A DNA stretch of 64,000 bases from Trypanosoma brucei (GCA_000002445.1 CM000208.1:3808001-3872000); one strand, 5' to 3'; counted from the stretch's first letter, positions 1-15,081 are shown. The notes: generated from the letters alone by a model not told the origin. A program made the numbers and translations.

Positions 1-2142
1 GATGCTTCGCCGAGTGAGAAGAAGCAAAGCGAGGGTGGACAATTGAAGGGATCCAACAGTGGAACGGCGGCGGGTAATAGTCAAGAAGCCGGTGACACCA
101 CAAAGGAAGGGACTCTCCACAGCTGGGATGTGATATCTGCTGTTCATCAGCGAAAGGCAGTTGGGGCAGTGACGTGGGGTGTAGGCGCGGCCGCCCGTCC
201 GGTGTCCATGCACAAACAATCCGTCTCAAAAGAATCATCAAACACGACGATGAAGCTATCTCGGGGAAGACAGCACGGTGGCGCTACGAGGCGCCGTAGT
301 GCGGGCACCGGCAAATCGTTTAACGTCACTCCAGCCTCATCAGCACCCGATTCGTGGCGTAGCGGTGCAGATGGAAAGCCGAAGTCATCGCCATCGAAAC
401 GGAGACTGTCACTGGAGGGGGGGCCGGGAACGGGCGGAACTAGTTTCACTTCGCCCTCGAGAGGTATGAGGCTTTTCTCGATAACCCCTGAGGTGCGGGA
501 GCAGCCACGTTACTTCGCGTACTATCTCTGTGATTGGGCTCTTCATACCACCTTACTGCTGCACGCACCATATCCGTCAATGAGAATGATAGAGACCCTC
601 CTGCACCTCATGGACAATCGGGCTCCCCTCAGTGCATCCGCGATACACATGTTCCTCGCGGCCTCGCGCCCAATGAATCACTGGTCCTCTGGCGAAGGTG
701 AACATATCACACTTAACTACACCACGCCCACACACGGTGATACGATTCTGCATCTTCTGGTGCAGAACCACCAGATACAATTGGCACGGTACTTCCTCGC
801 CGCGGCGCACTGCTTCTTCGCCTGCTACCAATACGACCAGCCGTCTACCGTTCCGCCGAACTTCCCGGTGAGCAGCGAGAGGGGGACCTGTGGAGACACA
901 GTAGACAGTGACTCTAGATATCCTGCCGTGTTCTTGCGAAGCATGCTGCGCACAAATAAACATGGGCTGACAGCTTTTGATTATGCCCGGGGGATGATGG
1001 TGTCGGTACTACAAGAATACGGATGTGTTCCACCAACCTACCGCCCCAACCCCCGTGAGTTTTGCCACACCGTTCGGCTCGTTGATGGCATGAGTACCTT
1101 CCAAAGAGTTCCTCAGCTTCTTCTTGTCTCCCCAGACTTTGTGAAACTGCGTGACAACGTGCGCACAAATACAAAGCAGCAAGACCCGTCGGTCAAACCA
1201 GTTATCACAGACGCCACGATACAACGGAATCAAGCAGCTGCACTCCGCATCACACGGTCACATATCCTCACCACCATCCTTGCAGATGATGTTAGCTTGC
1301 TGCACCTTGGCCTCTGTGCTGCGGATGACGAGCTCGTGCTTGAAAATATTGAACGTAGAAGAAGAAAAAGAGCAGCTGAACTTTACCATCCTGCTGCTGC
1401 TTCAGGACGAAGCATGTCAAGTCCGCGAGGGCCCTCAATACGGGACCAGCAAGGTGGCAACCAAAGGTTAACTCGCCTTCCGCACATCGGCGGCGCAGCA
1501 GAAACTGCTGCTCGGACGAGTACCCCGGCCAGTGGTGGTCGGAAGGTTGACAAGGAAATGCACAGCATGATGAAACTCATTGACTCTCTTCAAAAACGTG
1601 GTCTTGTTGTATTCCCGCTGCTACTACCCGCGACAGAAGATGACAAGAAACGCACGGCAGCAATACATAGCAATGATGGATTAGCCCTCCAACTGGCCAT
1701 GACACCTATGACCGTAGCACTCCAACAAGGTGCAGTTAAGCTCGAGGTGGCGACTGTAACTTCCCCCAACCCCACACAACAACAGCAGCAACAACACCGC
1801 AGTCCTGTAAGTGCTACCGAGCCCTTGGACAGCATGTACAACAATGACGTGCAGGACGCGACAATATCACCACGCTCGCTACAGCCTTACACGTTCCCAC
1901 CGAAAGACACCCCCAGACAGCACCCTGCCAATATGCTGGAGGCATGGTTAGCAAGCAGCAAAATGCAAAAGGGAGTGCACACCAAAGTAAGCCAGGAGCT
2001 ACATCAGAATACTCAGGCGATAATAAGAGTCATGGAAAAAGGAAACTGTTCTCGGTCAGCAAAACAAATCGGACTTACTGTGTCAATGCCGTACGAAATA
2101 CGCAACGAAGAAAGCACCACTAAAGAGTCATTCAGAAAATAA
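1..2142 (+). CDS. Hypothetical protein, 5'-truncated at the window edge, with possible ankyrin-like repeats.
   Basis: Frame 1 is open from base 1; the 43 start in the track is a TTG, so the real start is upstream. Ankyrin-like segments HGDTILHLLVQNHQIQLARYFL and NKHGLTAFDYARGMMVSVLQEYG. Gln-rich tract QQQQQQ near the C-terminus. Stop at 2140-2142. Confidence 0.5.
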   Translation, partial: DASPSEKKQSEGGQLKGSNSGTAAGNSQEAGDTTKEGTLHSWDVISAVHQRKAVGAVTWGVGAAARPVSMHKQSVSKESSNTTMKLSRGRQHGGATRRRSAGTGKSFNVTPASSAPDSWRSGADGKPKSSPSKRRLSLEGGPGTGGTSFTSPSRGMRLFSITPEVREQPRYFAYYLCDWALHTTLLLHAPYPSMRMIETLLHLMDNRAPLSASAIHMFLAASRPMNHWSSGEGEHITLNYTTPTHGDTILHLLVQNHQIQLARYFLAAAHCFFACYQYDQPSTVPPNFPVSSERGTCGDTVDSDSRYPAVFLRSMLRTNKHGLTAFDYARGMMVSVLQEYGCVPPTYRPNPREFCHTVRLVDGMSTFQRVPQLLLVSPDFVKLRDNVRTNTKQQDPSVKPVITDATIQRNQAAALRITRSHILTTILADDVSLLHLGLCAADDELVLENIERRRRKRAAELYHPAAASGRSMSSPRGPSIRDQQGGNQRLTRLPHIGGAAETAARTSTPASGGRKVDKEMHSMMKLIDSLQKRGLVVFPLLLPATEDDKKRTAAIHSNDGLALQLAMTPMTVALQQGAVKLEVATVTSPNPTQQQQQQHRSPVSATEPLDSMYNNDVQDATISPRSLQPYTFPPKDTPRQHPANMLEAWLASSKMQKGVHTKVSQELHQNTQAIIRVMEKGNCSRSAKQIGLTVSMPYEIRNEESTTKESFRK

Positions 2143-2351
2143 ATGTTCAAAACACACAAAAAAATGTAAACAAGCACTTACTAATTATCAAAATTAAAAA
2201 TCACATTTTCACAATAGAAACAAGTAACGGAAAAAAATGCTGAAAAATAAAAAATATACACCCAAACCTACAAAAACACTTTATCACTCTACAACAGACA
2301 GGAAGAAAAAAGACACCTAGTTTGTAAGGAATGTTGTGGCCTGGAAACACT

Positions 2352-2465
2352 GTCGCGCATGATGTGCTCAACTGGAATTACCATCTGAACGCGGGATACC
2401 GCAAGTCGATGAATTAATGCTACGTGCATTACCTCCGCTGTTACTCGTATCACTGACACCGCGAC
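2352..2465 (+). ncRNA. Candidate box C/D snoRNA, first in each repeat unit. Equivalent copies at +1208, +2416 and +3624.
   Basis: The 5' flank GTCGCG precedes a box C-like ATGATGT (2359-2365). Box D' CTGA is at 2385-2388, a C'-like GATGAA at 2409-2414 and box D CTGA at 2453-2456. The 3' flank CGCGAC (2460-2465) is the exact reverse complement of the 5' flank GTCGCG (2352-2357), giving the classic C/D terminal stem. Length is about 114 nt. Confidence 0.35.
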
Positions 2466-2495
2466 TGTTTCCTTTGTTTTGAGGCCCTCAGGGAA

Positions 2496-2580
2496 GCGCG
2501 TGATGACATACAAAGTTGTTTGCACATTTTCCGACACACCGTGAGCGAGTTACAATATTACAAGAACACCATCTGAATTT
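2496..2580 (+). ncRNA. Candidate box C/D snoRNA, second in each repeat unit.
   Basis: Perfect box C TGATGA at 2501-2506 (gcgcgTGATGAcat) and box D CTGA at 2573-2576 (caccatCTGAatt), 67 nt apart, which is a typical trypanosomatid C/D snoRNA size. No clear terminal stem. Confidence 0.3.
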
Positions 2581-3211
2581 TTGTCGACTCTACCCCTTCC
2601 TCCTTATTGGTGATGGCACAATGCATCTGTTCCCTTCTTTTATTTGGACCCTCTTCTTCCTACCCACTTACATACATGCACACACGTCTCTGTGTAAATG
2701 TATGCAGATATGTATACACACACACACTCTCTCTCTCTCCCGAATGCCGAGGCCTTTCTGTCTGTTCCCGGTCGGTGATTAGCAGTGCGTCTTCCACCTA
2801 ACGACCCTTGATGATTATGATACGATGCCTGGTCAACAGAACTATACTACACCAAATTTAGTAAATGAGACCACAGTGCAGGCAGAGGCTGGCAATCCTC
2901 GTCCGCCAGCAGCCGCCCCGGGCAGGATGGCGCCCGTGTCCCTGGCGTGACGTCTAATCGGTGCGGCGAGATGTGCTGACACTTTTGCGTCGCGTGATGA
3001 GGTGCAGAAGGCATGTCGCCGCTACGGCGGTGGCTCGCGTAGCCGTCTGGCTGTGCGCGTACTGTGAGCTACTGTACTCCATGGGTGAACAATCTCTGAT
3101 GACGTGTCACAGCGGGAGCAGTGTCGCTATGCGTTCCCGTCAGTAATACGGGCTAACGGTACGAAGCACGTGCGAGAGGTAAGTGGAAATCCGCTGCCTG
3201 TGAACACAGCA

Positions 3212-3300
3212 GGTACACATGATGCACACAATTCAATACTCACTCTGAACATCACTTGTCAGGAGGAATGTGATAACATGCACCACCAGCTGATCACATC
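3212..3300 (+). ncRNA. Candidate box C/D snoRNA, third in each repeat unit.
   Basis: Box C-like ATGATGC at 3219-3225, D' CTGA at 3245-3248, C'-like TGTGATAA at 3269-3276 and D CTGA at 3290-3293 (ccagCTGAtcac). Additional perfect TGATGA boxes at about 2809, 2995 and 3097 in the same unit lack an obvious CTGA partner. Confidence 0.25.
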
Positions 3301-6300
3301 CACGTGCATACATGCACACATGCCCTATCCCGCTTCCTTCACTTTTTCACACAGTCTGTGTGTCTGTGTGTCTGTGTGTGTGTGTGTACACCCGCATGTT
3401 TGTATACTTGTTTGTGACCATGCCAATGGACCCTTAATTACTCTATTTTTTTTTTCTCGTGGGCGGCTTTGAGACTGAGTGTGCGTCCTTAATACGCGAA
3501 CAACAAGCAAGGCCTCGTTGTTTGCTAGTTTGTAAGGAATGTTGTGGCCTGGAAACACTGTCGCGCATGATGTGCTCAACTGGAATTACCATCTGAACGC
3601 GGGATACCGCAAGTCGATGAATTAATGCTACGTGCATTACCTCCGCTGTTACTCGTATCACTGACACCGCGACTGTTTCCTTTGTTTTGAGGCCCTCAGG
3701 GAAGCGCGTGATGACATACAAAGTTGTTTGCACATTTTCCGACACACCGTGAGCGAGTTACAATATTACAAGAACACCATCTGAATTTTTGTCGACTCTA
3801 CCCCTTCCTCCTTATTGGTGATGGCACAATGCATCTGTTCCCTTCTTTTATTTGGACCCTCTTCTTCCTACCCACTTACATACATGCACACACGTCTCTG
3901 TGTAAATGTATGCAGATATGTATACACACACACACTCTCTCTCTCTCCCGAATGCCGAGGCCTTTCTGTCTGTTCCCGGTCGGTGATTAGCAGTGCGTCT
4001 TCCACCTAACGACCCTTGATGATTATGATACGATGCCTGGTCAACAGAACTATACTACACCAAATTTAGTAAATGAGACCACAGTGCAGGCAGAGGCTGG
4101 CAATCCTCGTCCGCCAGCAGCCGCCCCGGGCAGGATGGCGCCCGTGTCCCTGGCGTGACGTCTAATCGGTGCGGCGAGATGTGCTGACACTTTTGCGTCG
4201 CGTGATGAGGTGCAGAAGGCATGTCGCCGCTACGGCGGTGGCTCGCGTAGCCGTCTGGCTGTGCGCGTACTGTGAGCTACTGTACTCCATGGGTGAACAA
4301 TCTCTGATGACGTGTCACAGCGGGAGCAGTGTCGCTATGCGTTCCCGTCAGTAATACGGGCTAACGGTACGAAGCACGTGCGAGAGGTAAGTGGAAATCC
4401 GCTGCCTGTGAACACAGCAGGTACACATGATGCACACAATTCAATACTCACTCTGAACATCACTTGTCAGGAGGAATGTGATAACATGCACCACCAGCTG
4501 ATCACATCCACGTGCATACATGCACACATGCCCTATCCCGCTTCCTTCACTTTTTCACACAGTCTGTGTGTCTGTGTGTCTGTGTGTGTGTGTGTACACC
4601 CGCATGTTTGTATACTTGTTTGTGACCATGCCAATGGACCCTTAATTACTCTATTTTTTTTTTCTCGTGGGCGGCTTTGAGACTGAGTGTGCGTCCTTAA
4701 TACGCGAACAACAAGCAAGGCCTCGTTGTTTGCTAGTTTGTAAGGAATGTTGTGGCCTGGAAACACTGTCGCGCATGATGTGCTCAACTGGAATTACCAT
4801 CTGAACGCGGGATACCGCAAGTCGATGAATTAATGCTACGTGCATTACCTCCGCTGTTACTCGTATCACTGACACCGCGACTGTTTCCTTTGTTTTGAGG
4901 CCCTCAGGGAAGCGCGTGATGACATACAAAGTTGTTTGCACATTATCCGACACACCGTGAGCGAGTTACAATATTACAAGAACACCATCTGAATTTTTGT
5001 CGACTCTACCCCTTCCTCCTTATTGGTGATGGCACAATGCATCTGTTCCCTTCTTTTATTTGGACCCTCTTCTTCCTACCCACTTACATACATGCACACA
5101 CGTCTCTGTGTAAATGTATGCAGATATGTATACACACACACACTCTCTCTCTCTCCCGAATGCCGAGGCCTTTCTGTCTGTTCCCGGTCGGTGATTAGCA
5201 GTGCGTCTTCCACCTAACGACCCTTGATGATTATGATACGATGCCTGGTCAACAGAACTATACTACACCAAATTTAGTAAATGAGACCACAGTGCAGGCA
5301 GAGGCTGGCAATCCTCGTCCGCCAGCAGCCGCCCCGGGCAGGATGGCGCCCGTGTCCTTGGCGTGACGTCTAATCGGTGCGGCGAGATGTGCTGACACTT
5401 TTGCGTCGCGTGATGAGGTGCAGAAGGCATGTCGCCGCTACGGCGGTGGCTCGCGTAGCCGTCTGGCTGTGCGCGTACTGTGAGCTACTGTACTCCATGG
5501 GTGAACAATCTCTGATGACGTGTCACAGCGGGAGCAGTGTCGCTATGCGTTCCCGTCAGTAATACGGGCTAACGGTACGAAGCACGTGCGAGAGGTAAGT
5601 GGAAATCCGCTGCCTGTGAACACAGCAGGTACACATGATGCACACAATTCAATACTCACTCTGAACATCACTTGTCAGGAGGAATGTGATAACATGCACC
5701 ACCAGCTGATCACATCCACGTGCATACATGCACACATGCCCTATCCCGCTTCCTTCACTTTTTCACACAGTCTGTGTGTCTGTGTGTCTGTGTGTGTGTG
5801 TGTACACCTGCATGTTTGTATACTTGTTTGTGACCATGCCAATGGACCCTTAATTACTCTATTTTTTTTTTCTCGTGGGCGGCTTTGAGACTGAGTGTGC
5901 GTCCTTAATACGCGAACAACAAGCAAGGCCTCGTTGTTTGCTAGTTTGTAAGGAATGTTGTGGCCTGGAAACACTGTCGCGCATGATGTGCTCAACTGGA
6001 ATTACCATCTGAACGCGGGATACCGCAAGTCGATGAATTAATGCTACGTGCATTACCTCCGCTGTTACTCGTATCACTGACACCGCGACTGTTTCCTTTG
6101 TTTTGAGGCCCTCAGGGAAGCGCGTGATGACATACAAAGTTGTTTGCACATTTTCCGACACACCGTGAGCGAGTTACAATATTACAAGAACACCATCTGA
6201 ATTTTTGTCGACTCTACCCCTTCCTCCTTATTGGTGATGGCACAATGCATCTGTTCCCTTCTTTTATTTGGACCCTCTTCTTCCTACCCACTTACATACA

Positions 6301-7258
6301 TGCACACACGTCTCTGTGTAAATGTATGCAGATATGTATACACACACACTCTCTCTCTCTCTCCCGAATGCCGAGGCCTTTCTGTCTGTTCCCGGTCGGT
6401 GATTAGCAGTGCGTCTTCCACCTAACGACCCTTGATGATTATGATACGATGCCTGGTCAACAGAACTATACTACACCAAATTTAGTAAATGAGACCACAG
6501 TGCAGGCAGAGGCTGGCAATCCTCGTCCGCCAGCAGCCGCCCCGGGCAGGATGGCGCCCGTGTCCCTGGCGTGACGTCTAATCGGTGCGGCGAGATGTGC
6601 TGACACTTTTGCGTCGCGTGATGAGGTGCAGAAGGCATGTCGCCGCTACGGCGGTGGCTCGCGTAGCCGTCTGGCTGTGCGCGTACTGTGAGCTACTGTA
6701 CTCCATGGGTGAACAATCTCTGATGACGTGTCACAGCGGGAGCAGTGTCGCTATGCGTTCCCGTCAGTAATACGGGCTAACGGTACGAAGCACGTGCGAG
6801 AGGTAAGTGGAAATCCGCTGCCTGTGAACACAGCAGGTACACATGATGCACACAATTCAATACTCACTCTGAACATCACTTGTCAGGAGGAATGTGATAA
6901 CATGCACCACCAGCTGATCACATCCACGTGCATACATGCACACATGCCCTATCCCGCTTCCTTCACTTTTTCACACAGTCTGTGTGTCTGTGTGTCTGTC
7001 TGTGTGTGTGTACACCTGCATGTTTGTATACTTGTTTGTGACCATGCCAATGGACCCTTAATTACTCTATTTTTTTTTTCTCGTGGGCGGCTTTGAGACT
7101 GAGTGTGCGTCCTTAATACGCGAACAACAAGCAAGGCCTCGTTGTTTGCTAGTTTGTAAGGAATGTTGTGGCCTGGAAACACTGTCGCGCATGATGTGCT
7201 CAACTGGAATTACCATCTGAACGCGGGATACCGCAGGATGATGTCTTGAAACTATACT

Positions 7259-7289
7259 CTTTTCCTGCGCCTTTTTATTTTTCTCTTAG
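7259..7289 (+). promoter_or_regulatory. Polypyrimidine tract plus AG: putative trans-splice acceptor region for the downstream gene.
   Basis: tttcctgcgcctttttatttttctcttAG lies immediately upstream of the ATG at 7308. This is the standard kinetoplastid spliced-leader addition signal architecture. Confidence 0.4.
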
Positions 7290-7307
7290 TGTTTATTTAT
7301 TATTCTG

Positions 7308-8861
7308 ATGTCTGGAGAAAACTTGAATAAATCGATGAGTGCTGAAAGGGTTGCTGGGTCGTTGTCCGTAGGTCATGGCGTAGATCATGGTTCTCGTAAA
7401 CGAGCTCGTTCTATTTGTTTGAAGCAAAATTTTTCTCGACTTTTGTACCAGATGGTTATTCGTCAGCTGCATCATGATGGTTTTCTTGCTGCTGCATCCG
7501 CTGTCGCAGACGCTACTAACGTTGTTGTTCCGAGGCTGGAGGAAAATGCTGATCGATTGTCGAAGGTGGTTAGTTGGGGTCTCGCTGTGGAGGAGAGCAG
7601 TGTGGTTGAAATTGAGAACTTCTTCAAATTTGAAGTTGTTGAGCGATATTTGAGTGCATCGAGGGTATATATGCCGCTACACCTATCAGAGAGTGCAAGG
7701 GTGGGATCCATGGCGTATCGTATGCGAGAGCGTTTTATTACCTCATCTCTAGGTGGTGTTGTTCGACGTCTGGCATTTTCTTCGGATGGTTCGCTTATTG
7801 CATGTGGGGGAACTGATGGTCTGTGTGCCATTTTTTCTTTGAATACAATTGAGGATCTCAGTGCCCTTGAAGAAGTGCGGCAGGAGCAGCACTTTAACGG
7901 ACTTGATGGGAGTAACCCTAGTAATATTGGGGTGGGCAACGCAAGCAACAAAATTACGGAGCTCGCTGAGGCCCGTCGCTTTCATGAACACACGCACTCT
8001 GTGGAGGCTATTTCCTTTCATCCAACCAAGCAGCTTCTTGTCACTGGAGGTTTCGAGGGAGATTTGTACATTCGTGACTACAGTCAACCAGACAACCACG
8101 TTGTACACAAATTACGTGATGCTTTTCCTGTACGTTCCGCCGTTTTTCATCCCTCTGGAGAATACGTGCTGTACGCTACAGATCACACCACGCCAAGGCT
8201 TCTGAACCTCCGGAGTGGATCAGTGGTGGCCCCTGTGGCACACTCCGATAACGCTGCAGCAACCTGCGTAACCGCGATGGCAGGAGGAAAGGGAGTAGCT
8301 CGTGGTGCTTCTCAGAGGAAAGGCTGTGACGCAGGCCACGCGGCTGCTCTATGTGACGTGGATTTTTCTCCCGACGGCCGGACCTTCGCCTCATGCGGTC
8401 TAGACGGATCACTGATTGTGTATGACGGAGTCAGTAGTCGCATTGTGGCGAAGGTAAACAATGCACACTCAAGTGTTCCGGTAACCAGCGTAAAATTTAG
8501 TCGAACTGGTAATATTCTCCTCACCGCGGGCATGGACTCAGTTGCTCGGCTGTGGGACCTGCGGCGTGGGGATGGTGGGTGGGGCTGTACAGAAGTTATG
8601 TCGTTCGGCGAGCCTGGAAAATGTAATCACCGCAGCTTCCGTGCTTCTTTCAGCTGCAACGAAAGCCACGTCCTCTCCCAGGACACTTCCCTGTTTGCCA
8701 TTCACGCACACTGCGTCTACACAGGGGATACCTCATACACACTTACGGTGCCCAACCACATGCAGCGGGGCTTTGCCCCTGCGCCTTTTAGTAATGTAGT
8801 CGTTAGCGGTGGCGACGACTCACGTATGCGGCTATGGACACCGGCATGGACCACGGCGTGA
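7308..8861 (+). CDS. CSTF50: WD40-repeat protein resembling cleavage stimulation factor 50-kDa subunit (CstF50).
   Basis: N-terminal segment LYQMVIRQLHHDGFLAAASAVADAT resembles the CstF50 dimerisation domain (human [21 protein letters not shown], recalled from memory). Several WD repeats follow, e.g. LLTAGMDSVARLWDLRRG and VVVSGGDDSRMRLWT. ATG verified at 7308. Confidence 0.6.
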   Translation: MSGENLNKSMSAERVAGSLSVGHGVDHGSRKRARSICLKQNFSRLLYQMVIRQLHHDGFLAAASAVADATNVVVPRLEENADRLSKVVSWGLAVEESSVVEIENFFKFEVVERYLSASRVYMPLHLSESARVGSMAYRMRERFITSSLGGVVRRLAFSSDGSLIACGGTDGLCAIFSLNTIEDLSALEEVRQEQHFNGLDGSNPSNIGVGNASNKITELAEARRFHEHTHSVEAISFHPTKQLLVTGGFEGDLYIRDYSQPDNHVVHKLRDAFPVRSAVFHPSGEYVLYATDHTTPRLLNLRSGSVVAPVAHSDNAAATCVTAMAGGKGVARGASQRKGCDAGHAAALCDVDFSPDGRTFASCGLDGSLIVYDGVSSRIVAKVNNAHSSVPVTSVKFSRTGNILLTAGMDSVARLWDLRRGDGGWGCTEVMSFGEPGKCNHRSFRASFSCNESHVLSQDTSLFAIHAHCVYTGDTSYTLTVPNHMQRGFAPAPFSNVVVSGGDDSRMRLWTPAWTTA

Positions 8862-9834
8862 AATATTGTCCCCTTGGTGGCCCAGTAACTTCAAACTAGT
8901 TCTGCTTTTTAATGGCGGAAAGGAACGACAAACTCTTGTGGATTCCTCTTGCCTGGAGCCTCGATCAAGTGACAGAGCGTCGTTGAAAAGGAGGAAACAA
9001 AGGGGAGGGCGGTTGAATCTTACATCTGGGATCTGCATTCGATGCCATTTGTGGACCTCTGTTGAGCCATGCTTCGTTAGAGCCAACAAGGCCCAAAAGT
9101 TGCAACCGTTACAGGAGACACGTGTATCATGTTGTGAATCGGTTTCGTATGATTGACCGCGCTGGTGGCATAACGATTTCAGGTCCCCCTCTTTTATTAT
9201 TCTTAAATCATTTTCACGCGCGCACATTGCTTCCACTTGCGGGCGGGGGTTATGCATTTCATCAAAATGGGCAGTCTGCTTCTGATTAAATTTCAACTGA
9301 TCGTTATCTTGTTCTCTTCTTATGTGTTTTCGCTGATTACCCTTCGTCTTCATCGTGAATTCCTCACCCGTCCTACAAAGGACGGAAAGCAAGGCCAGTG
9401 GGAGAAGGTAGGGTCAAACCTTGAAGATAAGTTCATAATTATCCGCCTAGCAAAAGAAAGGGGAAACAGGCCAGTGTGAAAGGGGAGTGAGGGAAGCTGC
9501 AGCAGTGCTCGCTCCCTTCCTCTCTTCTGTTGAAGCTACTGGCCGCCGCGGGGCGTCGAGGTGTTTCGTGGGGGAGGCGAAGGGAAAGGGAAAAGAGGTT
9601 TAGTTAGTCCCTGCAAGAAGCAGGGGCTCATTGCTATTCACTGTGCCACTTCTCTGGGGGTGGGGCACGGCAGCTGTGACTTTCGGAAGTAACCAAAGGA
9701 AAGCTGGTGCATTAATAACGGCACGTAGAAGTACAACACGGGGAGGAATCTTTTTGCTGTCTGGAGTGCGACCCAAGGCAATTTCGTGTATACAGTAGGT
9801 AATTCCTGACGTATCCTTTTGATACCTGTAAATT

Positions 9835-12800
9835 ATGTCTGGTCTGACTTCACACAACATCTCAGCTACATCTATTCGTGTGCATGGAATCACACGTGAA
9901 CGTGATATGTGCGTTTTCTGCCGGAAGCGCTCTTCGCCACCACCTAATGATCCGCTGGCACCAGTATTTGCCTTCTTCTCGCTGGTTGACTGCCGTCACT
10001 ACGCGTGCCAACCGTGTGCTCTCGTGCATTGCGACAACGCTGGGCGGCATATACGTTGCCCCGCGTGTTGCGCGATTTCTCGTCTCGCGCAGTCGGGCCG
10101 CCGTCGCGGAAACCGTGTGGATGAACGAGTGCCAATAGATGACGGCGTATCGTCGGCGGCATCGCAGAGCTCAAAAAGAGTGTTGGCCCCACCGAAGCGT
10201 TCACTCTCCGTCACTGACCGGCGGAGACGTACGTCATCTGTTCAGTTCTCAACAAACTTAACATCGCCCAGTGGGCAGAAGGAGGCCCTCAGCACCGGCG
10301 GCTCTAACACGTCATTGACACTTGCCGCGGTCGGCCGGCTGCCAACCGACCCTAACTATAGCAAAGGCAAAGGGGATGAAGGAGGAACCGTTGCGGCCTT
10401 CAGCGAGGAGGAACGAATATCGGTCGATTTGTACACCATTAAGGGCACCGCTGCAAAACGCCCGCGTCGCACAACAGCTGAACGTGCCCGCAGTCAGCCG
10501 CTTCCTCCGGCAGAATATCGCTATTTGCCACCACCAACGCCGTTCCATCGCCCGCCGCCGCTAGTAATTCACACGATTGAGGAGGAAGAAGAGGTTGCGG
10601 CTTCATTCCAACTCATTGTAAGGGAAATCGAGCAAACTATCGCTGCTACGCTAGTAAAGGAGGCAGATGAGCGTGACACAATCGGAATTGCGGAAGCACA
10701 CCGCCGCAACGTCCTTTCAAAATTACGTGAAGAGGATGAAAGAAAGAGATTTGCAGCACATCACGAACTCAATGACGAGTTTTCTGATGCCAAATTAAGT
10801 CCTCGCACAACAACAAACGCATCAGACGGCCAAGTCAGTGAAACATCCGATGAAGGAATGTCAGAACTCTCAACACAACAAGACTCAATTCAAAAGAACT
10901 ACAAACAACCCATAGATCAAAAAGCAATGATCACAAAGGAAAGAACAGGAACACCTACCGCAGCGGAAAAACAAACAAAACACCAACAACAAACAATCAC
11001 CAAACAGAACACTGAAGAAGAAAAAAAAGAAGCAAAAAATGAAAACAATAAGGAGAGTAAAAAAAAACGGCGTGAGCGTGTTGAGGTTGCTACATGGGAT
11101 TCGGAACAACAGCTGCGGCTCTTTGAACAACTTATGGATCTCGCTCGTGATGAACAACAGCACCGTGCCAAAATACAGCGTGACGAAACTCGTATGCATG
11201 CGGAAATGGAACGAAGTGAGGCTAGCGATGTTGCAACAATCAAGGCTGCAATGGAGGCCATGGCAGAGTCAGCACGTAGAGAGCAGGAGGAATTATTGCG
11301 TGATGAGAAGGAAGAACGCTACACCATCCAAGAGGATGAGCGACGGCTACGGCGCAACATAACGCGACAGAGCGCGGAGCTCTCACTCGACGTCAGCATG
11401 CAGCATGTGCAACAACGTGGTAAGGAGGACGCACAAAGGGAATTGGATATGCTAAGGGTTGCACTGGAATCAACTGCTGTTGAAACCACTTCGCGCGCTC
11501 GCCTCAACCTCATTGTAACGGAGGAACTGAGGGCACGTGATTCCCTGTGCAGTGACGAAGCAAGTGAACGAGCCATGCACGCAGCAGAAGAGCGACGTGA
11601 GCGTGTTGAGGTTGCTACATGGGATTCGGAACAACAGCTGCGGCTCTTTGAACAACTTATGGATCTCGCTCGTGATGAACAACAGCACCGTGCCAAAATA
11701 CAGCGTGACGAAACTCGTATGCATGCGGAAATGGAACGAAGTGAGGCTAGCGATGTTGCAACAATCAAGGCTGCAATGGAGGCCATGGCAGAGTCAGCAC
11801 GTAGAGAGCAGGAGGAATTATTGCGTGATGAGAAGGAAGAACGCTACACCATCCAAGAGGATGAGCGACGGCTACGGCGCAACATAACGCGACAGAGCGC
11901 GGAGCTCTCACTCGACGTCAGCATGCAGCATGTGCAACAACGTGGTAAGGAGGACGCACAAAGGGAATTGGATATGCTAAGGGTTGCACTGGAATCAACT
12001 GCTGTTGAAACCACTTCGCGCGCTCGCCTCAACCTCATTGTAACGGAGGAACTGAGGGCACGTGATTCCCTGTGCAGTGACGAAGCAAGTGAACGAGCCA
12101 TGCACGCAGCAGAAGAGCGACGTGAGCGTGTTGAGGTTGCTACATGGGATTCGGAACAACAGCTGCGGCTCTTTGAACAACTTATGGATCTCGCTCGTGA
12201 TGAACAACAGCACCGTGCCAAAATACAGCGTGACGAAACTCGTATGCATGCGGAAATGGAACGAAGTGAGGCTAGCGATGTTGCAACAATCAAGGCTGCA
12301 ATGGAGGCCATGGCAGAGTCAGCACGTAGAGAGCAGGAGGAATTATTGCGTGATGAGAAGGAAGAACGCTACACCATCCAAGAGGATGAGCGGCGGCTAC
12401 GGCGCAACATAACACGACAGAGCGCGGAGCTCTCACTCGACGTCAGCATGCAGCATGTGCAACAACGTGGTAAGGAGGACGCACAAAGGGAATTGGATAT
12501 GCTAAGGGTTGCACTGGAATCAACTGCTGTTGAAACCACTTCGCGCGCTCGCCTCAACCTCATTGTAACGGAGGAACTGAGGGCACGTGATTCCCTGTGC
12601 AGTGACGAAGCAAGTGAACGAGCCATGCACGCAGCAGAAGAGCGACGTGAGCGTGTTGAGGTTGCTACATGGGATTCGGAACAACAGCTGCGGCTCTTTG
12701 AACAACTTATGGATCTCGCTCGTGATGAACAACAGCACCGTGCCAAAATACAGCGTGACGAAACTCGTATGCATGCGGAAATGGAACGAAGTGAGGCTGA

Positions 12801-15081
12801 CGGAATCTTGGCATGCGGTGCTCAGAGTGAAGGAGCCGATTCTTTTGAAGTTGCTTCTTCGGGGTGTGATTGTGTTTTTCGTCCTTCTGGTGCTGATTGT
12901 GCCTCTTTCTCTCCGTATGTTTGTCGAGGGGGTGGTGTTTTGCCGCTTGATGTTGAAATTCCTGTTGGTTTGGCGTATTCAGCGCATGGCAGCACATCAG
13001 CTGAGGTTATTTCAGTTGACTATACCTCTTTTTTGCCTATTGTTGGCAGTGACGCTCAGGGTGAATCATCTTTGTGGAATACTCTTGACGATGATGGTGG
13101 CGTTGTTTTTGGTGATGTTTGCGCGGGTGGGGACGATGTTGGCATTGATGTAAATGACGTTGAGAGTGTGCACATCAGCAGGGGATGTTCAACCGTACTT
13201 GACGCCGGTGGCGTTGGCGCAACTGCTGAAGTATATGCTTTAGATGAAAAGTGGCGTGATGGGACTGCGGTAAGCGCTGAGCCCCCTCGCATTCCAGCAA
13301 GTAGGATTTGTCGTACTTGCTTCTCCACTGATACGAGTAGATGTGCGCGTTGTGGCACAATGGTGTGCTCTCATTGTATTCCTTCAGGTTCGTTTCGTCA
13401 GTGCTGTACGTTACATCACCTTACCATTATCAACAAGAGGTGCAGGGTAATGACTGAAACGAGGGTGCACGCTAGGTGGGAGTGCCGGAGGTTGTTTAGG
13501 CAGTTCCGACTCGAGCAACGGATGAGAAGGCGGAGAGAAAATGTGGTAAACACTCGAGGGTTTGATGTAGTCGTTCTTACACCGGAGCAAAAGGGTGACA
13601 ACTCTAACCTGCACGAGGTTAAGACGCCTCCTAGAGTCACTCGTCGATTCTTAAACCAAGAAAATGACAGTGAGGAAGATGCTGCATGGAAATCACATTA
13701 TCTTGAGTCATGGCCATCTGATTCGGGGCAGATGCCACCTTGCGGACTCAAACAAGAGCGGTTTGATGAATTTAATGATGCCGAAAATAGTATGAACCTA
13801 ACGGCAGATAATGAGCCCAAGACCGAAAGAAAAAGAGCCACAGCATTCTTTGTACCATTAGGTAATAGCGCCGAACCAAGGAGGCCCAAACCTCCGACAC
13901 CTAGAAACTATGTTCCCGGAATTATCCACAATTGTACGAAAGCTCCGCAGAGCAAGCGAGCAGTTTCAAGAATGCGTTTCCGGCGCCTTCGGAGGCAAAA
14001 CGCAACGGGTAATACTAAGAACACAACGTTGAATTCTGCTGCTGCAGGAAGAAATGTACAGGAACATCGCGCCGCAAGCAGTTCCAAGCCGCGGCCACAA
14101 GAAAGCTGGGCACGGCAAAGACCTGTGCAGCGTCAGGGTGCCTTTATTACGGCAGACCCCGTGAGAGGGATCACGAGAAGCGGCCCAACGTCCAATTCCT
14201 GGCGCCGCCGGAATTTCCGCACGAAAAGCCGGTCACCAGCTGGGTATGGCGGCAAAGCAAGTGCTTGCAATTTCCACGGTGATCGATGCGGGGACGCCAT
14301 GGCACTGGGACGCACATATTACGACGGTAACCCCGTGAGGAGTAAGGGGTTGGCTTACGTTCTGGACGAAGAGCCACCACAGAGAGGATATGAGCCGACG
14401 CCACCAACCAGACTGCAGAGCAACCGGGTAGTCAAATCGGGGGTACACAGCGGCGAAGAACATACAAGGATGGGGTGTCAACACGAGTGGGAGCCTGACC
14501 AGCAATGTGTACCATTATTTGAGGAGTTTCATGCGTCTTCCTCGACCCCACCCTGGCGGCCTCCGTTCTCGCGTGACCCACCACCTCCGCGCCGCAACCA
14601 CAGGAACACAAACATAGGAGGTCGAACACACCGTACGCTAGCCCCCTTTCCAGCACGCCAACGCCTTTGCCACCCGCGGCAACGCAGTGCCGCCGACCTC
14701 ACACGCAACGCAAGTCCCGGGCAGGCGTGCAGCAGATTCCATTACAATCCACTGGACGACGTTGATCGTGCTGCCTTCGTTGGTGGACCGCGCGGAGCAC
14801 AACGGCAACCGCCTACGAGTGTAGCGGAGCCATGTATTACCGTGCATCTCTTTCCGCCTTCTTCGTACGGAGGGGGAGCGGGAACTTCTGGACGGCATCC
14901 GTTGCGGGGTCCAACCGCAAGGAGACACTCAAGTCGTGCCCACAGGCCCTCACCAGCTCGAGCGGCTTCACCTCCGTGGCGAACAGACCTAAACACCCCG
15001 TTCATTTGTCCCCCATGGAACGCGAACCGGCCTGACACGTTTATTGCAAAGCCGTATACCCGCACCACGTGCAGAAGGTAG
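9835..15081 (+). CDS. Large RING-finger protein (1748 aa) with internal 175-aa charged tandem repeats and a low-complexity C-terminal half.
   Basis: N-terminal C3HC4-type RING signature (CVFC...CRHYACQPC...CPACC). About 3.3 perfect copies of a 175-aa E/R/Q-rich helical repeat. A second Cys cluster CRTCFSTDTSRCARCGTMVCSHCIPSGSFRQCC. R/P/S-rich tail. A 5.2-kb ORF cannot arise by chance. Confidence 0.6.
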   Translation: MSGLTSHNISATSIRVHGITRERDMCVFCRKRSSPPPNDPLAPVFAFFSLVDCRHYACQPCALVHCDNAGRHIRCPACCAISRLAQSGRRRGNRVDERVPIDDGVSSAASQSSKRVLAPPKRSLSVTDRRRRTSSVQFSTNLTSPSGQKEALSTGGSNTSLTLAAVGRLPTDPNYSKGKGDEGGTVAAFSEEERISVDLYTIKGTAAKRPRRTTAERARSQPLPPAEYRYLPPPTPFHRPPPLVIHTIEEEEEVAASFQLIVREIEQTIAATLVKEADERDTIGIAEAHRRNVLSKLREEDERKRFAAHHELNDEFSDAKLSPRTTTNASDGQVSETSDEGMSELSTQQDSIQKNYKQPIDQKAMITKERTGTPTAAEKQTKHQQQTITKQNTEEEKKEAKNENNKESKKKRRERVEVATWDSEQQLRLFEQLMDLARDEQQHRAKIQRDETRMHAEMERSEASDVATIKAAMEAMAESARREQEELLRDEKEERYTIQEDERRLRRNITRQSAELSLDVSMQHVQQRGKEDAQRELDMLRVALESTAVETTSRARLNLIVTEELRARDSLCSDEASERAMHAAEERRERVEVATWDSEQQLRLFEQLMDLARDEQQHRAKIQRDETRMHAEMERSEASDVATIKAAMEAMAESARREQEELLRDEKEERYTIQEDERRLRRNITRQSAELSLDVSMQHVQQRGKEDAQRELDMLRVALESTAVETTSRARLNLIVTEELRARDSLCSDEASERAMHAAEERRERVEVATWDSEQQLRLFEQLMDLARDEQQHRAKIQRDETRMHAEMERSEASDVATIKAAMEAMAESARREQEELLRDEKEERYTIQEDERRLRRNITRQSAELSLDVSMQHVQQRGKEDAQRELDMLRVALESTAVETTSRARLNLIVTEELRARDSLCSDEASERAMHAAEERRERVEVATWDSEQQLRLFEQLMDLARDEQQHRAKIQRDETRMHAEMERSEADGILACGAQSEGADSFEVASSGCDCVFRPSGADCASFSPYVCRGGGVLPLDVEIPVGLAYSAHGSTSAEVISVDYTSFLPIVGSDAQGESSLWNTLDDDGGVVFGDVCAGGDDVGIDVNDVESVHISRGCSTVLDAGGVGATAEVYALDEKWRDGTAVSAEPPRIPASRICRTCFSTDTSRCARCGTMVCSHCIPSGSFRQCCTLHHLTIINKRCRVMTETRVHARWECRRLFRQFRLEQRMRRRRENVVNTRGFDVVVLTPEQKGDNSNLHEVKTPPRVTRRFLNQENDSEEDAAWKSHYLESWPSDSGQMPPCGLKQERFDEFNDAENSMNLTADNEPKTERKRATAFFVPLGNSAEPRRPKPPTPRNYVPGIIHNCTKAPQSKRAVSRMRFRRLRRQNATGNTKNTTLNSAAAGRNVQEHRAASSSKPRPQESWARQRPVQRQGAFITADPVRGITRSGPTSNSWRRRNFRTKSRSPAGYGGKASACNFHGDRCGDAMALGRTYYDGNPVRSKGLAYVLDEEPPQRGYEPTPPTRLQSNRVVKSGVHSGEEHTRMGCQHEWEPDQQCVPLFEEFHASSSTPPWRPPFSRDPPPPRRNHRNTNIGGRTHRTLAPFPARQRLCHPRQRSAADLTRNASPGQACSRFHYNPLDDVDRAAFVGGPRGAQRQPPTSVAEPCITVHLFPPSSYGGGAGTSGRHPLRGPTARRHSSRAHRPSPARAASPPWRTDLNTPFICPPWNANRPDTFIAKPYTRTTCRR
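11068..12800 (+). repeat. In-frame tandem repeats of 525 bp (175 aa), about 3.3 copies, inside the RING protein CDS.
   Basis: The unit starts RRERVEVATWDSEQQLRLFEQLMDLARDEQQHRAKIQRDETRMHAEMERSEASD and ends DEASERAMHAAEE. Period 525 is seen in ORF-track recurrences (11537/12062/12587; 11844/12369). Nucleotide copies are identical apart from 1-2 SNPs. The antisense ORFs in this span are repeat artefacts. Confidence 0.9.

What the first reader, a model, noticed from the sequence alone, without database searches (positions are those of the whole stretch)
2307..7235. A 4.9-kb array of 1208-bp tandem repeats occupies almost the whole spacer between two protein genes
About 4.08 head-to-tail copies are present at >99% identity, with only isolated SNPs. 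That level of identity implies ongoing homogenisation by concerted evolution or unequal crossing-over. The unit has no credible coding frame, because its ORFs in all frames are microsatellite-driven. The final copy is cut off exactly inside the first snoRNA-like element. The 1208-bp period and the absence of spliced-leader or 5S sequence argue against the known kinetoplastid tandem RNA gene arrays. Copy number here may be collapsed or expanded by assembly.
Basis: seen in the sequence. Interest (0 to 1): 0.7.

Follow-up and report, generated by a model that had tools for sequence, protein, structure and literature searches.

The report
Known trypanosome tandem snoRNA gene cluster
The 4.9-kb repeat is real, but it is the already described Trypanosoma brucei chromosome-10 snoRNA gene cluster (TB10Cs3): each 1208-bp unit carries seven small nucleolar RNA genes that guide ribosomal RNA modification, so it is an ordinary, known feature.

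Summary
Window 2317-7235 is a head-to-tail array with period 1208 and 4.07 copies. Identity at that lag is 99.6%, against 21-31% at neighbouring lags, and the full copies differ at five SNP columns. The array fills 95% of the spacer between a giant Ank/SPRY protein gene and CstF50.

It is not an unknown array. Rfam places six named T. brucei snoRNAs, well above gathering score, in every unit on the + strand: TBR12, TBR6, TBR4, TB10Cs3H2, TBR2 and TB10Cs3H1. A seventh box C/D gene (3215-3295) is conserved in T. vivax. That makes 5 C/D + 2 H/ACA-like genes, matching the published TB10Cs3 cluster (C1-C5, H1, H2). The fifth copy stops 48 nt into TBR12.

T. b. gambiense has the same array with the same junctions but three full units. 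Eighteen substitutions are fixed in every unit of one genome versus the other, 16 of them in spacers. T. vivax has a syntenic array with a 1075-bp period; its snoRNAs are conserved and its spacers cannot be aligned.

Verdict: already known, low interest.

The parts
2317..7235 (+). Whole tandem array: 4 full 1208-bp units plus an 87-nt start of a fifth
   Evidence: Lag-1208 identity is 99.6% and the boundaries were set base by base
2356..2457 (+). Box C/D snoRNA TBR12, unit 1 (also 3564-3665, 4772-4873, 5980-6081)
   Evidence: Rfam RF02789, 113.2 bits against gathering 77. Its D' guide CTGGAATTACC pairs perfectly over 11 nt with GGUAAUUCCAG of a kinetoplastid-type SSU rRNA fragment
2497..2578 (+). 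Box C/D snoRNA TBR6, unit 1 (also 3705-3786, 4913-4994, 6121-6202)
   Evidence: Rfam RF02788, 95-98 bits against gathering 37.6
2579..2772 (+). Long spacer A (194 nt; repeats at +1208, +2416, +3624) with pyrimidine tracts and (CA)n/(CT)n microsatellites; candidate trans-splice acceptor region
   Evidence: Poly-Y tracts of 16-21 nt lie at 3796-3873 in unit 2, and T. vivax has tracts at the same place. Tb/Tv identity is only 28%. The splice-site role is inferred
2773..2871 (+). Box C/D snoRNA TBR4, unit 1 (also 3981-4079, 5189-5287, 6397-6495)
   Evidence: Rfam RF02787, 118.9 bits against gathering 83
2904..2972 (+). H/ACA-like snoRNA TB10Cs3H2, unit 1 (also 4112-4180, 5320-5388, 6528-6596)
   Evidence: Rfam RF01532, 88-90 bits against gathering 45. 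It folds as a single hairpin followed by AGA, with 2 compensatory pairs across T. brucei, T. vivax and Leishmania
2991..3101 (+). Box C/D snoRNA TBR2, unit 1 (also 4199-4309, 5407-5517, 6615-6725); probably TB10Cs3C1
   Evidence: Rfam RF02786, 115.7 bits against gathering 62. It lies 15 nt upstream of H1, as the literature describes for TB10Cs3C1/H1
3117..3178 (+). H/ACA-like snoRNA TB10Cs3H1, unit 1 (also 4325-4386, 5533-5594, 6741-6802)
   Evidence: Rfam RF01531, 86.1 bits against gathering 40. Single hairpin plus AGA, with 3 compensatory pairs between T. brucei and T. vivax
3215..3295 (+). Seventh gene: box C/D snoRNA with no Rfam family of its own, unit 1 (also 4423-4503, 5631-5711, 6839-6919); probably TB10Cs3C2
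   Evidence: It has a C box AUGAUGC, an internal CUGA and a terminal CUGA. The only Rfam match is weak, to snR55/Z10 (23.9 bits, E=0.21). The boxes and both guide segments are conserved in T. vivax while the middle varies. The name assignment is inferred
3296..3563 (+). Long spacer B (268 nt; repeats at +1208, +2416, +3624) with the (GTCTGTGT)n/(GT)n microsatellite and poly-Y tracts; candidate trans-splice acceptor region
   Evidence: TRF reports the microsatellite. Poly-Y tracts lie at 4531-4556 and 4649-4666 in unit 2, with a counterpart in T. vivax. Length differences between gambiense units map here
7188..7235 (+). Truncated fifth TBR12 (first 48 of 102 nt: C box, D' guide, D' box; no D box), the right-hand array junction
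   Evidence: The same junction is present in T. b. gambiense (L009) and T. equiperdum (L001)
43..2142 (+). Upstream flanking gene: C-terminal part of a giant Ank/SPRY protein (stop at 2142)
   Evidence: ORF. This fragment has no Pfam hit. It is identified by synteny with the 3459-aa, 2919-aa and 3436-aa Ank/SPRY genes upstream of CstF50 in gambiense, T. vivax and T. conorhini
7308..8861 (+). Downstream flanking gene: CstF50 (cleavage stimulation factor 50 kDa subunit; WD40 plus CSTF1 dimerisation domain)
   Evidence: Pfam. It is 100% identical to T. b. brucei TREU927 XP_828044.1 and to the T. equiperdum protein. Its own poly-Y tract is at 7270-7287 with AG at 7288

Best explanation
This is the tandemly repeated snoRNA gene cluster TB10Cs3 of Trypanosoma brucei chromosome 10. 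Each 1208-bp unit holds seven snoRNA genes on the + strand, in this order: TBR12, TBR6, spacer A, TBR4, TB10Cs3H2, TBR2, TB10Cs3H1, a fifth C/D gene, spacer B. Shown here: the gene content, the order, the strand, the repeat structure, conservation across species and homogenisation of the copies. Taken from the literature: the array has no promoter of its own. RNA polymerase II reads through it as part of the surrounding + strand polycistronic unit. The precursors are trans-spliced and polyadenylated, then cut and trimmed into individual snoRNAs. The C/D RNAs assemble with the fibrillarin/NOP58 complex and direct 2'-O-methylation of rRNA at the nucleotide paired to the fifth base upstream of the D or D' box. 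The single-hairpin AGA-box RNAs assemble with CBF5 and direct pseudouridylation. Inferred: the two long pyrimidine-rich spacers supply the trans-splice and polyadenylation signals, so each unit would yield two precursors (TBR12-TBR6, and TBR4-H2-TBR2-H1-C/D). Inferred: tandem repetition sets gene dosage, because trypanosomes cannot tune transcription of single genes. Unequal crossing-over or gene conversion keeps the units identical and changes their number.
For: Rfam gives 24 hits above gathering score, six families times four units, all on +, with full-length alignments. The seventh C/D gene has its boxes and guides conserved in T. vivax. The total of 5 C/D + 2 H/ACA matches the published names TB10Cs3C1-C5, H1 and H2 and their mapped rRNA targets. 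Both H/ACA-like RNAs fold as single hairpins followed by AGA and show compensatory changes. The TBR12 D' guide pairs perfectly over 11 nt with the GGUAAUUCCAG segment of an SSU rRNA, placing a U at the fifth position. That is consistent with Um at SSU_680 assigned to TB10Cs3C3. 21 of 22 ORFs of at least 250 aa in the window are on +. [quoted passage not shown] Concerted evolution: T. b. gambiense has identical junctions but 3 units. Substitutions number 0-4 within a genome and 19-23 between genomes. 18 differences are fixed in all units, 2 of them in 606 nt of snoRNA and 16 in 602 nt of spacer (binomial P=6e-4). T. vivax has a syntenic array of period 1075, with snoRNAs 63-80% identical and spacers 18-50% identical to T. 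brucei.
Against: Nothing found contradicts it. The limits are these. Expression, processing sites and rRNA targets were not measured here. Only one guide-target duplex could be checked, on a partial environmental SSU rRNA. The correspondence between TBR names and TB10Cs3C1-C5 names is my inference, because Liang 2005 and Dunbar 2000 are not in the held library. The copy number and the near-identity of copies in Sanger-era assemblies may be partly shaped by assembly.
Confidence: 0.96

Rival explanations
1. The copies are alike only because the amplification is very recent. There would be no ongoing homogenisation: a single-copy cluster was duplicated a few times shortly before sampling.
For: The copies differ at only 5 of 1208 columns. 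Copy number differs between close relatives.
Against: T. b. brucei, T. b. gambiense and T. equiperdum share the same left junction and the same truncated TBR12 right junction. A multi-copy array with a partial last unit therefore predates their split. Yet 18 substitutions are fixed in every unit of each genome. That requires spreading of variants across units, or collapse and re-expansion, which is itself unequal crossing-over. T. vivax also has a repeated array at the same site.
Confidence: 0.05
2. The copy number and the extreme identity are assembly products: a collapsed or consensus-smoothed repeat. The real locus would have a different number of more variable units.
For: A short-read T. 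equiperdum contig ends inside the array, and so does a T. vivax contig. Two contigs of one T. vivax assembly show 1.43 versus 2.43 copies. The gambiense units differ in microsatellite length, while the four units here are all exactly 1208 nt.
Against: The period, gene content and junctions are reproduced in three independent assemblies. Unit-specific SNPs are retained, so the copies were not simply cloned by the assembler. This rival bears only on copy number, not on what the element is.
Confidence: 0.3
3. The unit encodes a small repeated protein from one of the 84-122-aa ORFs. A 103-aa 'gene' is called inside the gambiense array.
For: ORFs recur in every unit. A gene model exists in L009 at 9602-9913.
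Against: There is no significant Pfam match; the best is E=0.011, below the family cutoff. The ORFs run through snoRNA genes and microsatellites. The corresponding regions cannot be aligned with T. vivax and are riddled with indels. Units within gambiense differ by 3-, 7- and 10-column indels in the microsatellite.
Confidence: 0.01
4. It is a non-functional satellite or another class of kinetoplastid tandem RNA array (SL RNA, 5S rRNA).
For: Tandem organisation and an embedded microsatellite.
Against: No SL RNA or 5S family reaches threshold anywhere in the window. Half of every unit is made of curated snoRNA families. Fixed substitutions avoid the snoRNA parts.
Confidence: 0.01

Closest known systems
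T. brucei snoRNA cluster TB10Cs3 (snoRNAs TBR12, TBR6, TBR4, TBR2, TB10Cs3H1, TB10Cs3H2; Rfam RF02789, RF02788, RF02787, RF02786, RF01531, RF01532; Dunbar et al. 2000, Liang et al. 2005, Michaeli et al. 2012)
   Same: It is the same locus. All six Rfam families match full-length at 86-119 bits. The count of 5 C/D + 2 H/ACA genes per unit equals the published C1-C5, H1 and H2. The cluster is repeated, and the flanking CstF50 is identical to the TREU927 protein.
   Different: Nothing of substance. This work adds exact junctions, the 48-nt TBR12 stub, and the comparison with gambiense and T. vivax. The published copy number could not be read because the figure is not held.
Repeated snoRNA clusters of other trypanosomatids (Leptomonas collosoma, Leishmania major; Liang 2004, 2007; Xu 2001)
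   Same: [quoted passage not shown] Orthologous genes sit near CstF50 in L. martiniquensis.
   Different: Unit length, spacer sequence and copy number are species-specific: 1208 nt in T. b. brucei, 1190-1200 nt in gambiense and 1075 nt in T. vivax.
Concertedly evolving tandem multigene families (rDNA, 5S, SL RNA and tubulin arrays)
   Same: Within-genome identity far exceeds between-genome identity, lineage-specific substitutions are fixed in all units, and copy number varies.
   Different: The array is very short (3-4 units). It sits inside a Pol II polycistron between single-copy protein genes and has no promoter of its own.
Plant polycistronic snoRNA clusters
   Same: Several snoRNAs are released from one precursor, an organisation the literature compares to trypanosomes.
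   Different: Plant clusters are usually not head-to-tail reiterated units, and their precursors are not SL trans-spliced.

Membership tests
Rfam families snoTBR12, snoTBR6, snoTBR4, snoTBR2, TB10Cs3H1, TB10Cs3H2 | Covariance-model score at or above the curated gathering score over the full model | tested here: met
   24 hits, each spanning the whole model, score 86-119 bits against gathering scores of 37.6-83
Box C/D snoRNA | C box (RUGAUGA) near the 5' end, D box (CUGA) near the 3' end, and internal D'/C' boxes | tested here: met
   The sequences printed show GUGAUGA or AUGAUG(U/C) near the 5' end and CUGA near the 3' end in TBR12, TBR6, TBR2 and the seventh gene. TBR4 has variant boxes (GUGAUUA ... 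AUGA) but matches its Rfam family at 118.9 bits
Box C/D snoRNA | Antisense element of at least 10 nt complementary to rRNA, ending next to D or D', so that the fifth upstream nucleotide pairs with the methylated base | tested here: inconclusive
   Met for the TBR12 D' guide: 11 perfect pairs with GGUAAUUCCAG of a kinetoplastid-type SSU fragment, ending 2 nt before CUGA, with the fifth nucleotide opposite a U. The other guides could not be tested because no LSU or 3' SSU sequence was obtained. The literature assigns Nm sites to TB10Cs3C1-C5
Box C/D snoRNA | Association with fibrillarin/NOP58 and stability that depends on them | not testable with these tools
   The literature reports that TB10Cs3C1 decreases on NOP58 silencing
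Trypanosomatid H/ACA-like snoRNA | A single hairpin with an internal pocket, followed by an AGA box at the 3' end (not two hairpins with H and ACA boxes) | tested here: met
   Consensus folds give one hairpin of 18 pairs (H2) and one of 20 pairs (H1). The hairpins are followed by GAGAU (H2) and GAGAG (H1), with AAGAC for H1 in T. vivax. 2 and 3 pairs respectively show compensatory changes
Trypanosomatid H/ACA-like snoRNA | CBF5 dependence and guidance of a mapped pseudouridine | not testable with these tools
   The literature reports that TB10Cs3H1 decreases on CBF5 silencing
Trypanosomatid repeated snoRNA cluster | Several C/D and H/ACA-like genes interspersed in one unit, with the unit reiterated head to tail, in the same orientation as the neighbouring protein genes | tested here: met
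   Seven genes per 1208-bp unit, 4.07 units, all on +. The flanking genes and 21 of 22 large ORFs are on +
Trypanosomatid repeated snoRNA cluster | Polycistronic Pol II transcription, with SL-trans-spliced and polyadenylated precursors | not testable with these tools
   From the literature only. Pyrimidine tracts followed by AG in both long spacers are compatible with it
Concerted evolution of a tandem gene family | Units more alike within a genome than between genomes although the array predates the split, with lineage-specific substitutions fixed in all units | tested here: met
   The junctions are shared. Substitutions number 0-4 within a genome and 19-23 between genomes, and 18 differences are fixed
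SL RNA or 5S rRNA tandem arrays (considered) | Presence of an SL RNA or 5S rRNA gene in the unit | tested here: not met
   No such Rfam family reaches threshold in the window or in one unit at E up to 1

The most novel reading that the evidence does not exclude
The most novel reading not excluded concerns the conserved 48-nt TBR12 stub (C box, D' guide and D' box, but no D box), which sits 35 nt before the CstF50 splice-acceptor tract. The same junction occurs in all three Trypanozoon genomes examined, and snoRNA genes also lie close to CstF50 in T. vivax and Leishmania. The stub might therefore be more than debris. It could be a retained half-snoRNA, or a processing boundary that couples 3' processing of the snoRNA precursor to 5' trans-splicing of the mRNA for a 3'-end-processing factor.
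Probability: 0.03. Interest if true: 0.35.

Novelty: already known. Interest (0 to 1): 0.08.

Why it matters
It matters little as a discovery. The locus, its RNAs and its mode of expression are described in the literature and curated in Rfam. The practical value is for annotation. The array should be labelled as snoRNA cluster TB10Cs3 with 28 snoRNA genes plus one truncated copy. ORF calls inside it should be removed. Its copy number should be treated as unresolved. The brucei-gambiense comparison also gives a compact, clean example of concerted evolution, with purifying selection confined to the RNA-coding halves of the unit.

Tried and rejected
- Tandem Repeats Finder cannot see the array because its longest period is 500. 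It reported only the embedded GTCTGTGT microsatellite. I measured periodicity with a lag-identity script instead.
- The primary papers are not held (Liang 2005, PMC1370750; Dunbar 2000, PMC102681 / PMID 10908346). A full-text search for TBR12/TBR6 found nothing. The published copy number and the TBR-to-TB10Cs3C name table could therefore not be read.
- An exact look-up of the 1748-aa downstream ORF found no record.
- The metagenome scan with a trypanosome 18S primer returned one partial SSU (L010, model positions 328-1182) and one non-rRNA contig (L011). Only one guide could be tested, and a 14-nt TBR6 match (12 WC + 2 GU) was dismissed because that segment is not conserved in T. vivax.
- T. 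conorhini has no snoRNA in the syntenic spacer at E up to 0.1.
- The T. theileri locus is masked by Ns upstream of CstF50 (4721-7872), and the T. rangeli contig ends 531 nt upstream of CstF50. Both are uninformative.
- The weak mir-3149, mir-297 and mir-3154 matches score far below their gathering scores. The mir-3149 hit inside the unit lies on the TG-rich microsatellite. I treat them as spurious.
- A protein-coding reading of the unit ORFs was rejected.
Full report
**Observation.** Base i matches base i+1208 at 99.57% of positions over the reported span. Neighbouring lags (1200-1212) give 21-31%. Base-by-base comparison puts the periodic stretch at 2317-7235. The right edge is exactly as reported. 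The left edge lies 10 nt inside the reported start. That is 4919 nt, or 4.07 units. The four full units differ at five columns, plus one at the left junction. The upstream ORF stops at 2142 and the next ATG-initiated long ORF starts at 7308, so the array fills 95% of the spacer. Tandem Repeats Finder cannot see periods above 500 and reported only the embedded GTCTGTGT microsatellite, once per unit.

**What the unit contains.** An Rfam scan of the whole window at gathering thresholds returned 24 hits. All lie inside the array and all are on the + strand. They are six families, each present in four units:

| snoRNA | Position in unit 1 |
|---|---|
| snoTBR12 | 2356-2457 |
| snoTBR6 | 2497-2578 |
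| snoTBR4 | 2773-2871 |
| TB10Cs3H2 | 2904-2972 |
| snoTBR2 | 2991-3101 |
| TB10Cs3H1 | 3117-3178 |

The other copies lie at +1208, +2416 and +3624. Every match covers its full model. Scores are 86-119 bits against gathering scores of 37.6-83.

A permissive scan of one unit added a weak match to the snR55/Z10 C/D family at 4423-4503, which is 3215-3295 in unit 1. That interval has a C box (AUGAUGC), an internal CUGA and a terminal CUGA. In the alignment with T. vivax, its boxes and both guide segments are conserved while its middle varies. This is the expected pattern for a box C/D guide RNA.

The unit therefore carries five C/D and two H/ACA-like genes. The literature uses exactly the names TB10Cs3C1-C5, TB10Cs3H1 and TB10Cs3H2. 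It describes C1 as directly adjacent to H1, and it assigns mapped 2'-O-methylation sites on SSU and LSU rRNA to C1-C5. The gene order here suggests C1 = TBR2, C2 = the seventh gene, C3 = TBR12, C4 = TBR6 and C5 = TBR4. This is my inference, because the defining paper is not held.

**Structure and target checks.**
- H2 and H1 each fold as a single hairpin, of 18 and 20 pairs, followed by AGA. Two and three pairs respectively are kept through changes on both sides across T. brucei, T. vivax and Leishmania. This is the trypanosomatid H/ACA-like architecture.
- The TBR12 D' guide (CTGGAATTACC, ending 2 nt before CUGA) forms 11 perfect pairs with GGUAAUUCCAG in a kinetoplastid-type SSU rRNA fragment fished from a metagenome. 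The fifth nucleotide falls opposite a U. That agrees with a methylated U at SSU_680 attributed to TB10Cs3C3.
- The other guides could not be tested because no full rRNA sequence was available.

**Genomic context and organism.** The downstream gene (7308-8861) is CstF50, with WD40 repeats and a CSTF1 dimerisation domain. It is 100% identical to T. b. brucei TREU927 XP_828044.1 and to the T. equiperdum protein. One contig carrying that protein is 4.05 Mb long. The window is therefore from Trypanozoon chromosome 10, most likely TREU927 (inference). The upstream ORF is the C-terminal end of a giant Ank/SPRY protein, identified by synteny. 21 of the 22 ORFs of at least 250 aa in the window are on +. 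The snoRNA genes thus lie in the sense of one polycistronic unit, as the literature states for all T. brucei snoRNA genes.

**Comparative evidence.**
- **T. b. gambiense DAL972 (L009).** It has the same array between the same genes, with the same left junction and the same 48-nt TBR12 stub. It has three full units, of 1190, 1200 and 1197 nt. The length differences lie in microsatellites.
- **T. equiperdum.** The short-read contig begins inside the stub, so that assembly broke at the array.
- **Seven-unit alignment.** Units differ by 0-4 substitutions within a genome and by 19-23 between genomes. Eighteen substitutions are fixed in all units of one genome versus the other. Two lie in the 606 nt of snoRNA sequence and sixteen in the 602 nt of spacer (binomial P = 6e-4).
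- **What this shows.** The junctions are shared, so the array predates the split. Variants must therefore have spread through all units afterwards. That is concerted evolution, with purifying selection confined to the RNA genes. One variant (T at 5358, in H2 of unit 3) equals the base fixed in gambiense. It looks like an ancestral polymorphism that has not yet been homogenised.
- **T. vivax.** The same cluster lies between the same two genes with a 1075-bp period. Two contigs of one assembly hold 1.43 and 2.43 copies, and the array ends 41 nt before the CstF50 ATG. Between T. brucei and T. vivax the seven snoRNA genes are 63-80% identical. The spacers are 18-50% identical and full of indels.
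- **More distant species.** L. martiniquensis has a TBR2-like gene about 930 nt upstream of CstF50 and a TBR6-H2-TBR2 group 9 kb upstream. T. conorhini has no detectable snoRNA in that spacer.

**Mechanism.**
- **Shown here:** the gene content, order, strand, repetition, conservation and homogenisation.
- **From the literature:** trypanosomatid snoRNA clusters are usually repeated. [quoted passage not shown] Their precursors carry a spliced leader and a poly(A) tail and may contain one or several snoRNAs. TB10Cs3C1 depends on NOP58 and TB10Cs3H1 on CBF5.
- **Inferred:** the two long spacers (194 and 268 nt) carry 13-26-nt pyrimidine tracts followed by AG in T. brucei. T. vivax has tracts at the same relative positions although the spacer sequence itself is not conserved. 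These are the likely trans-splice acceptor regions. They would split each unit into two precursors, TBR12-TBR6 and TBR4-H2-TBR2-H1-C/D.
- **Also inferred:** reiteration plausibly sets dosage in an organism without gene-specific transcriptional control.

**Rivals.**
- A protein-coding reading fails. The unit ORFs have no significant Pfam match. They run through snoRNA genes and microsatellites and are not conserved.
- An SL RNA or 5S array is excluded by the absence of those families.
- Pure recent duplication without homogenisation is contradicted by the shared junctions combined with the fixed differences.
- Assembly effects remain a real caveat for copy number only.

**Verdict.** The error was to conclude that the array stands apart from known kinetoplastid tandem RNA arrays. 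It is a textbook example of one, the repeated snoRNA cluster, and this specific cluster is named and curated. Novelty: already known. Interest: low.

Noticed in passing
window 11063-12937 (inside ORF 9835-15081): There are about 3.5 in-frame tandem repeats of 525 nt (175 aa) inside the 1748-aa ORF. The first three are 99-100% identical and the fourth is 63% identical. The ORF has only a marginal FabA-like Pfam hit. The gambiense orthologue is longer and is interrupted by an N gap, so the repeat number is probably unresolved.
   Followed up: partly
window 7188-7307; L009 9880-10000; L001 1-104: The truncated TBR12 stub and its junction (…GGGATACCGC|(A/G)GGATGATGTC…) are shared by T. b. brucei, T. 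b. gambiense and T. equiperdum. Only 72 nt, including an 18-nt pyrimidine tract with AG at 7288, separate the array from the CstF50 ATG.
   Followed up: partly
window 5358 (TB10Cs3H2 of unit 3): Unit 3 carries T where the other three units have C. T is the base fixed in all three gambiense units. This looks like a shared ancestral polymorphism that has not yet been homogenised.
   Followed up: no
L002 8425-9959 and L003 7350-9959 (T. vivax, same assembly GCA_021307395.1): Two contigs of one assembly carry the orthologous array with 1.43 and 2.43 copies of a 1075-bp unit. They are either allelic copy-number variation or assembly variants. The left junction lies inside TBR12, unlike in T. brucei.
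   Followed up: partly
L009 9602-9913 (T. b. gambiense): The public annotation calls a 103-aa gene inside the last snoRNA unit. It has no Pfam family on record and is probably a spurious ORF call.
   Followed up: no
L005 8981-10001 (T. conorhini); L008 390-888 and 8979-9071 (L. martiniquensis): The syntenic Ank/SPRY-CstF50 spacer of T. conorhini holds no detectable snoRNA. Leishmania, in contrast, keeps a TBR2-like gene just upstream of CstF50 and a TBR6-H2-TBR2 group 9 kb upstream. The cluster's position is therefore old but not universal.
   Followed up: partly
window 1-64000: 21 of the 22 ORFs of at least 250 aa are on the + strand. The single minus-strand ORF overlaps a + ORF. The whole window lies in one polycistronic transcription unit. 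No RNA family other than the 24 snoRNA hits reaches the Rfam gathering score.
   Followed up: yes
window 4512-4597 (and the same offset in each unit): A weak mir-3149 match (28.6 bits against gathering 100) falls on the CA/TG-rich microsatellite hairpin. It is a low-complexity artefact, not a miRNA.
   Followed up: yes
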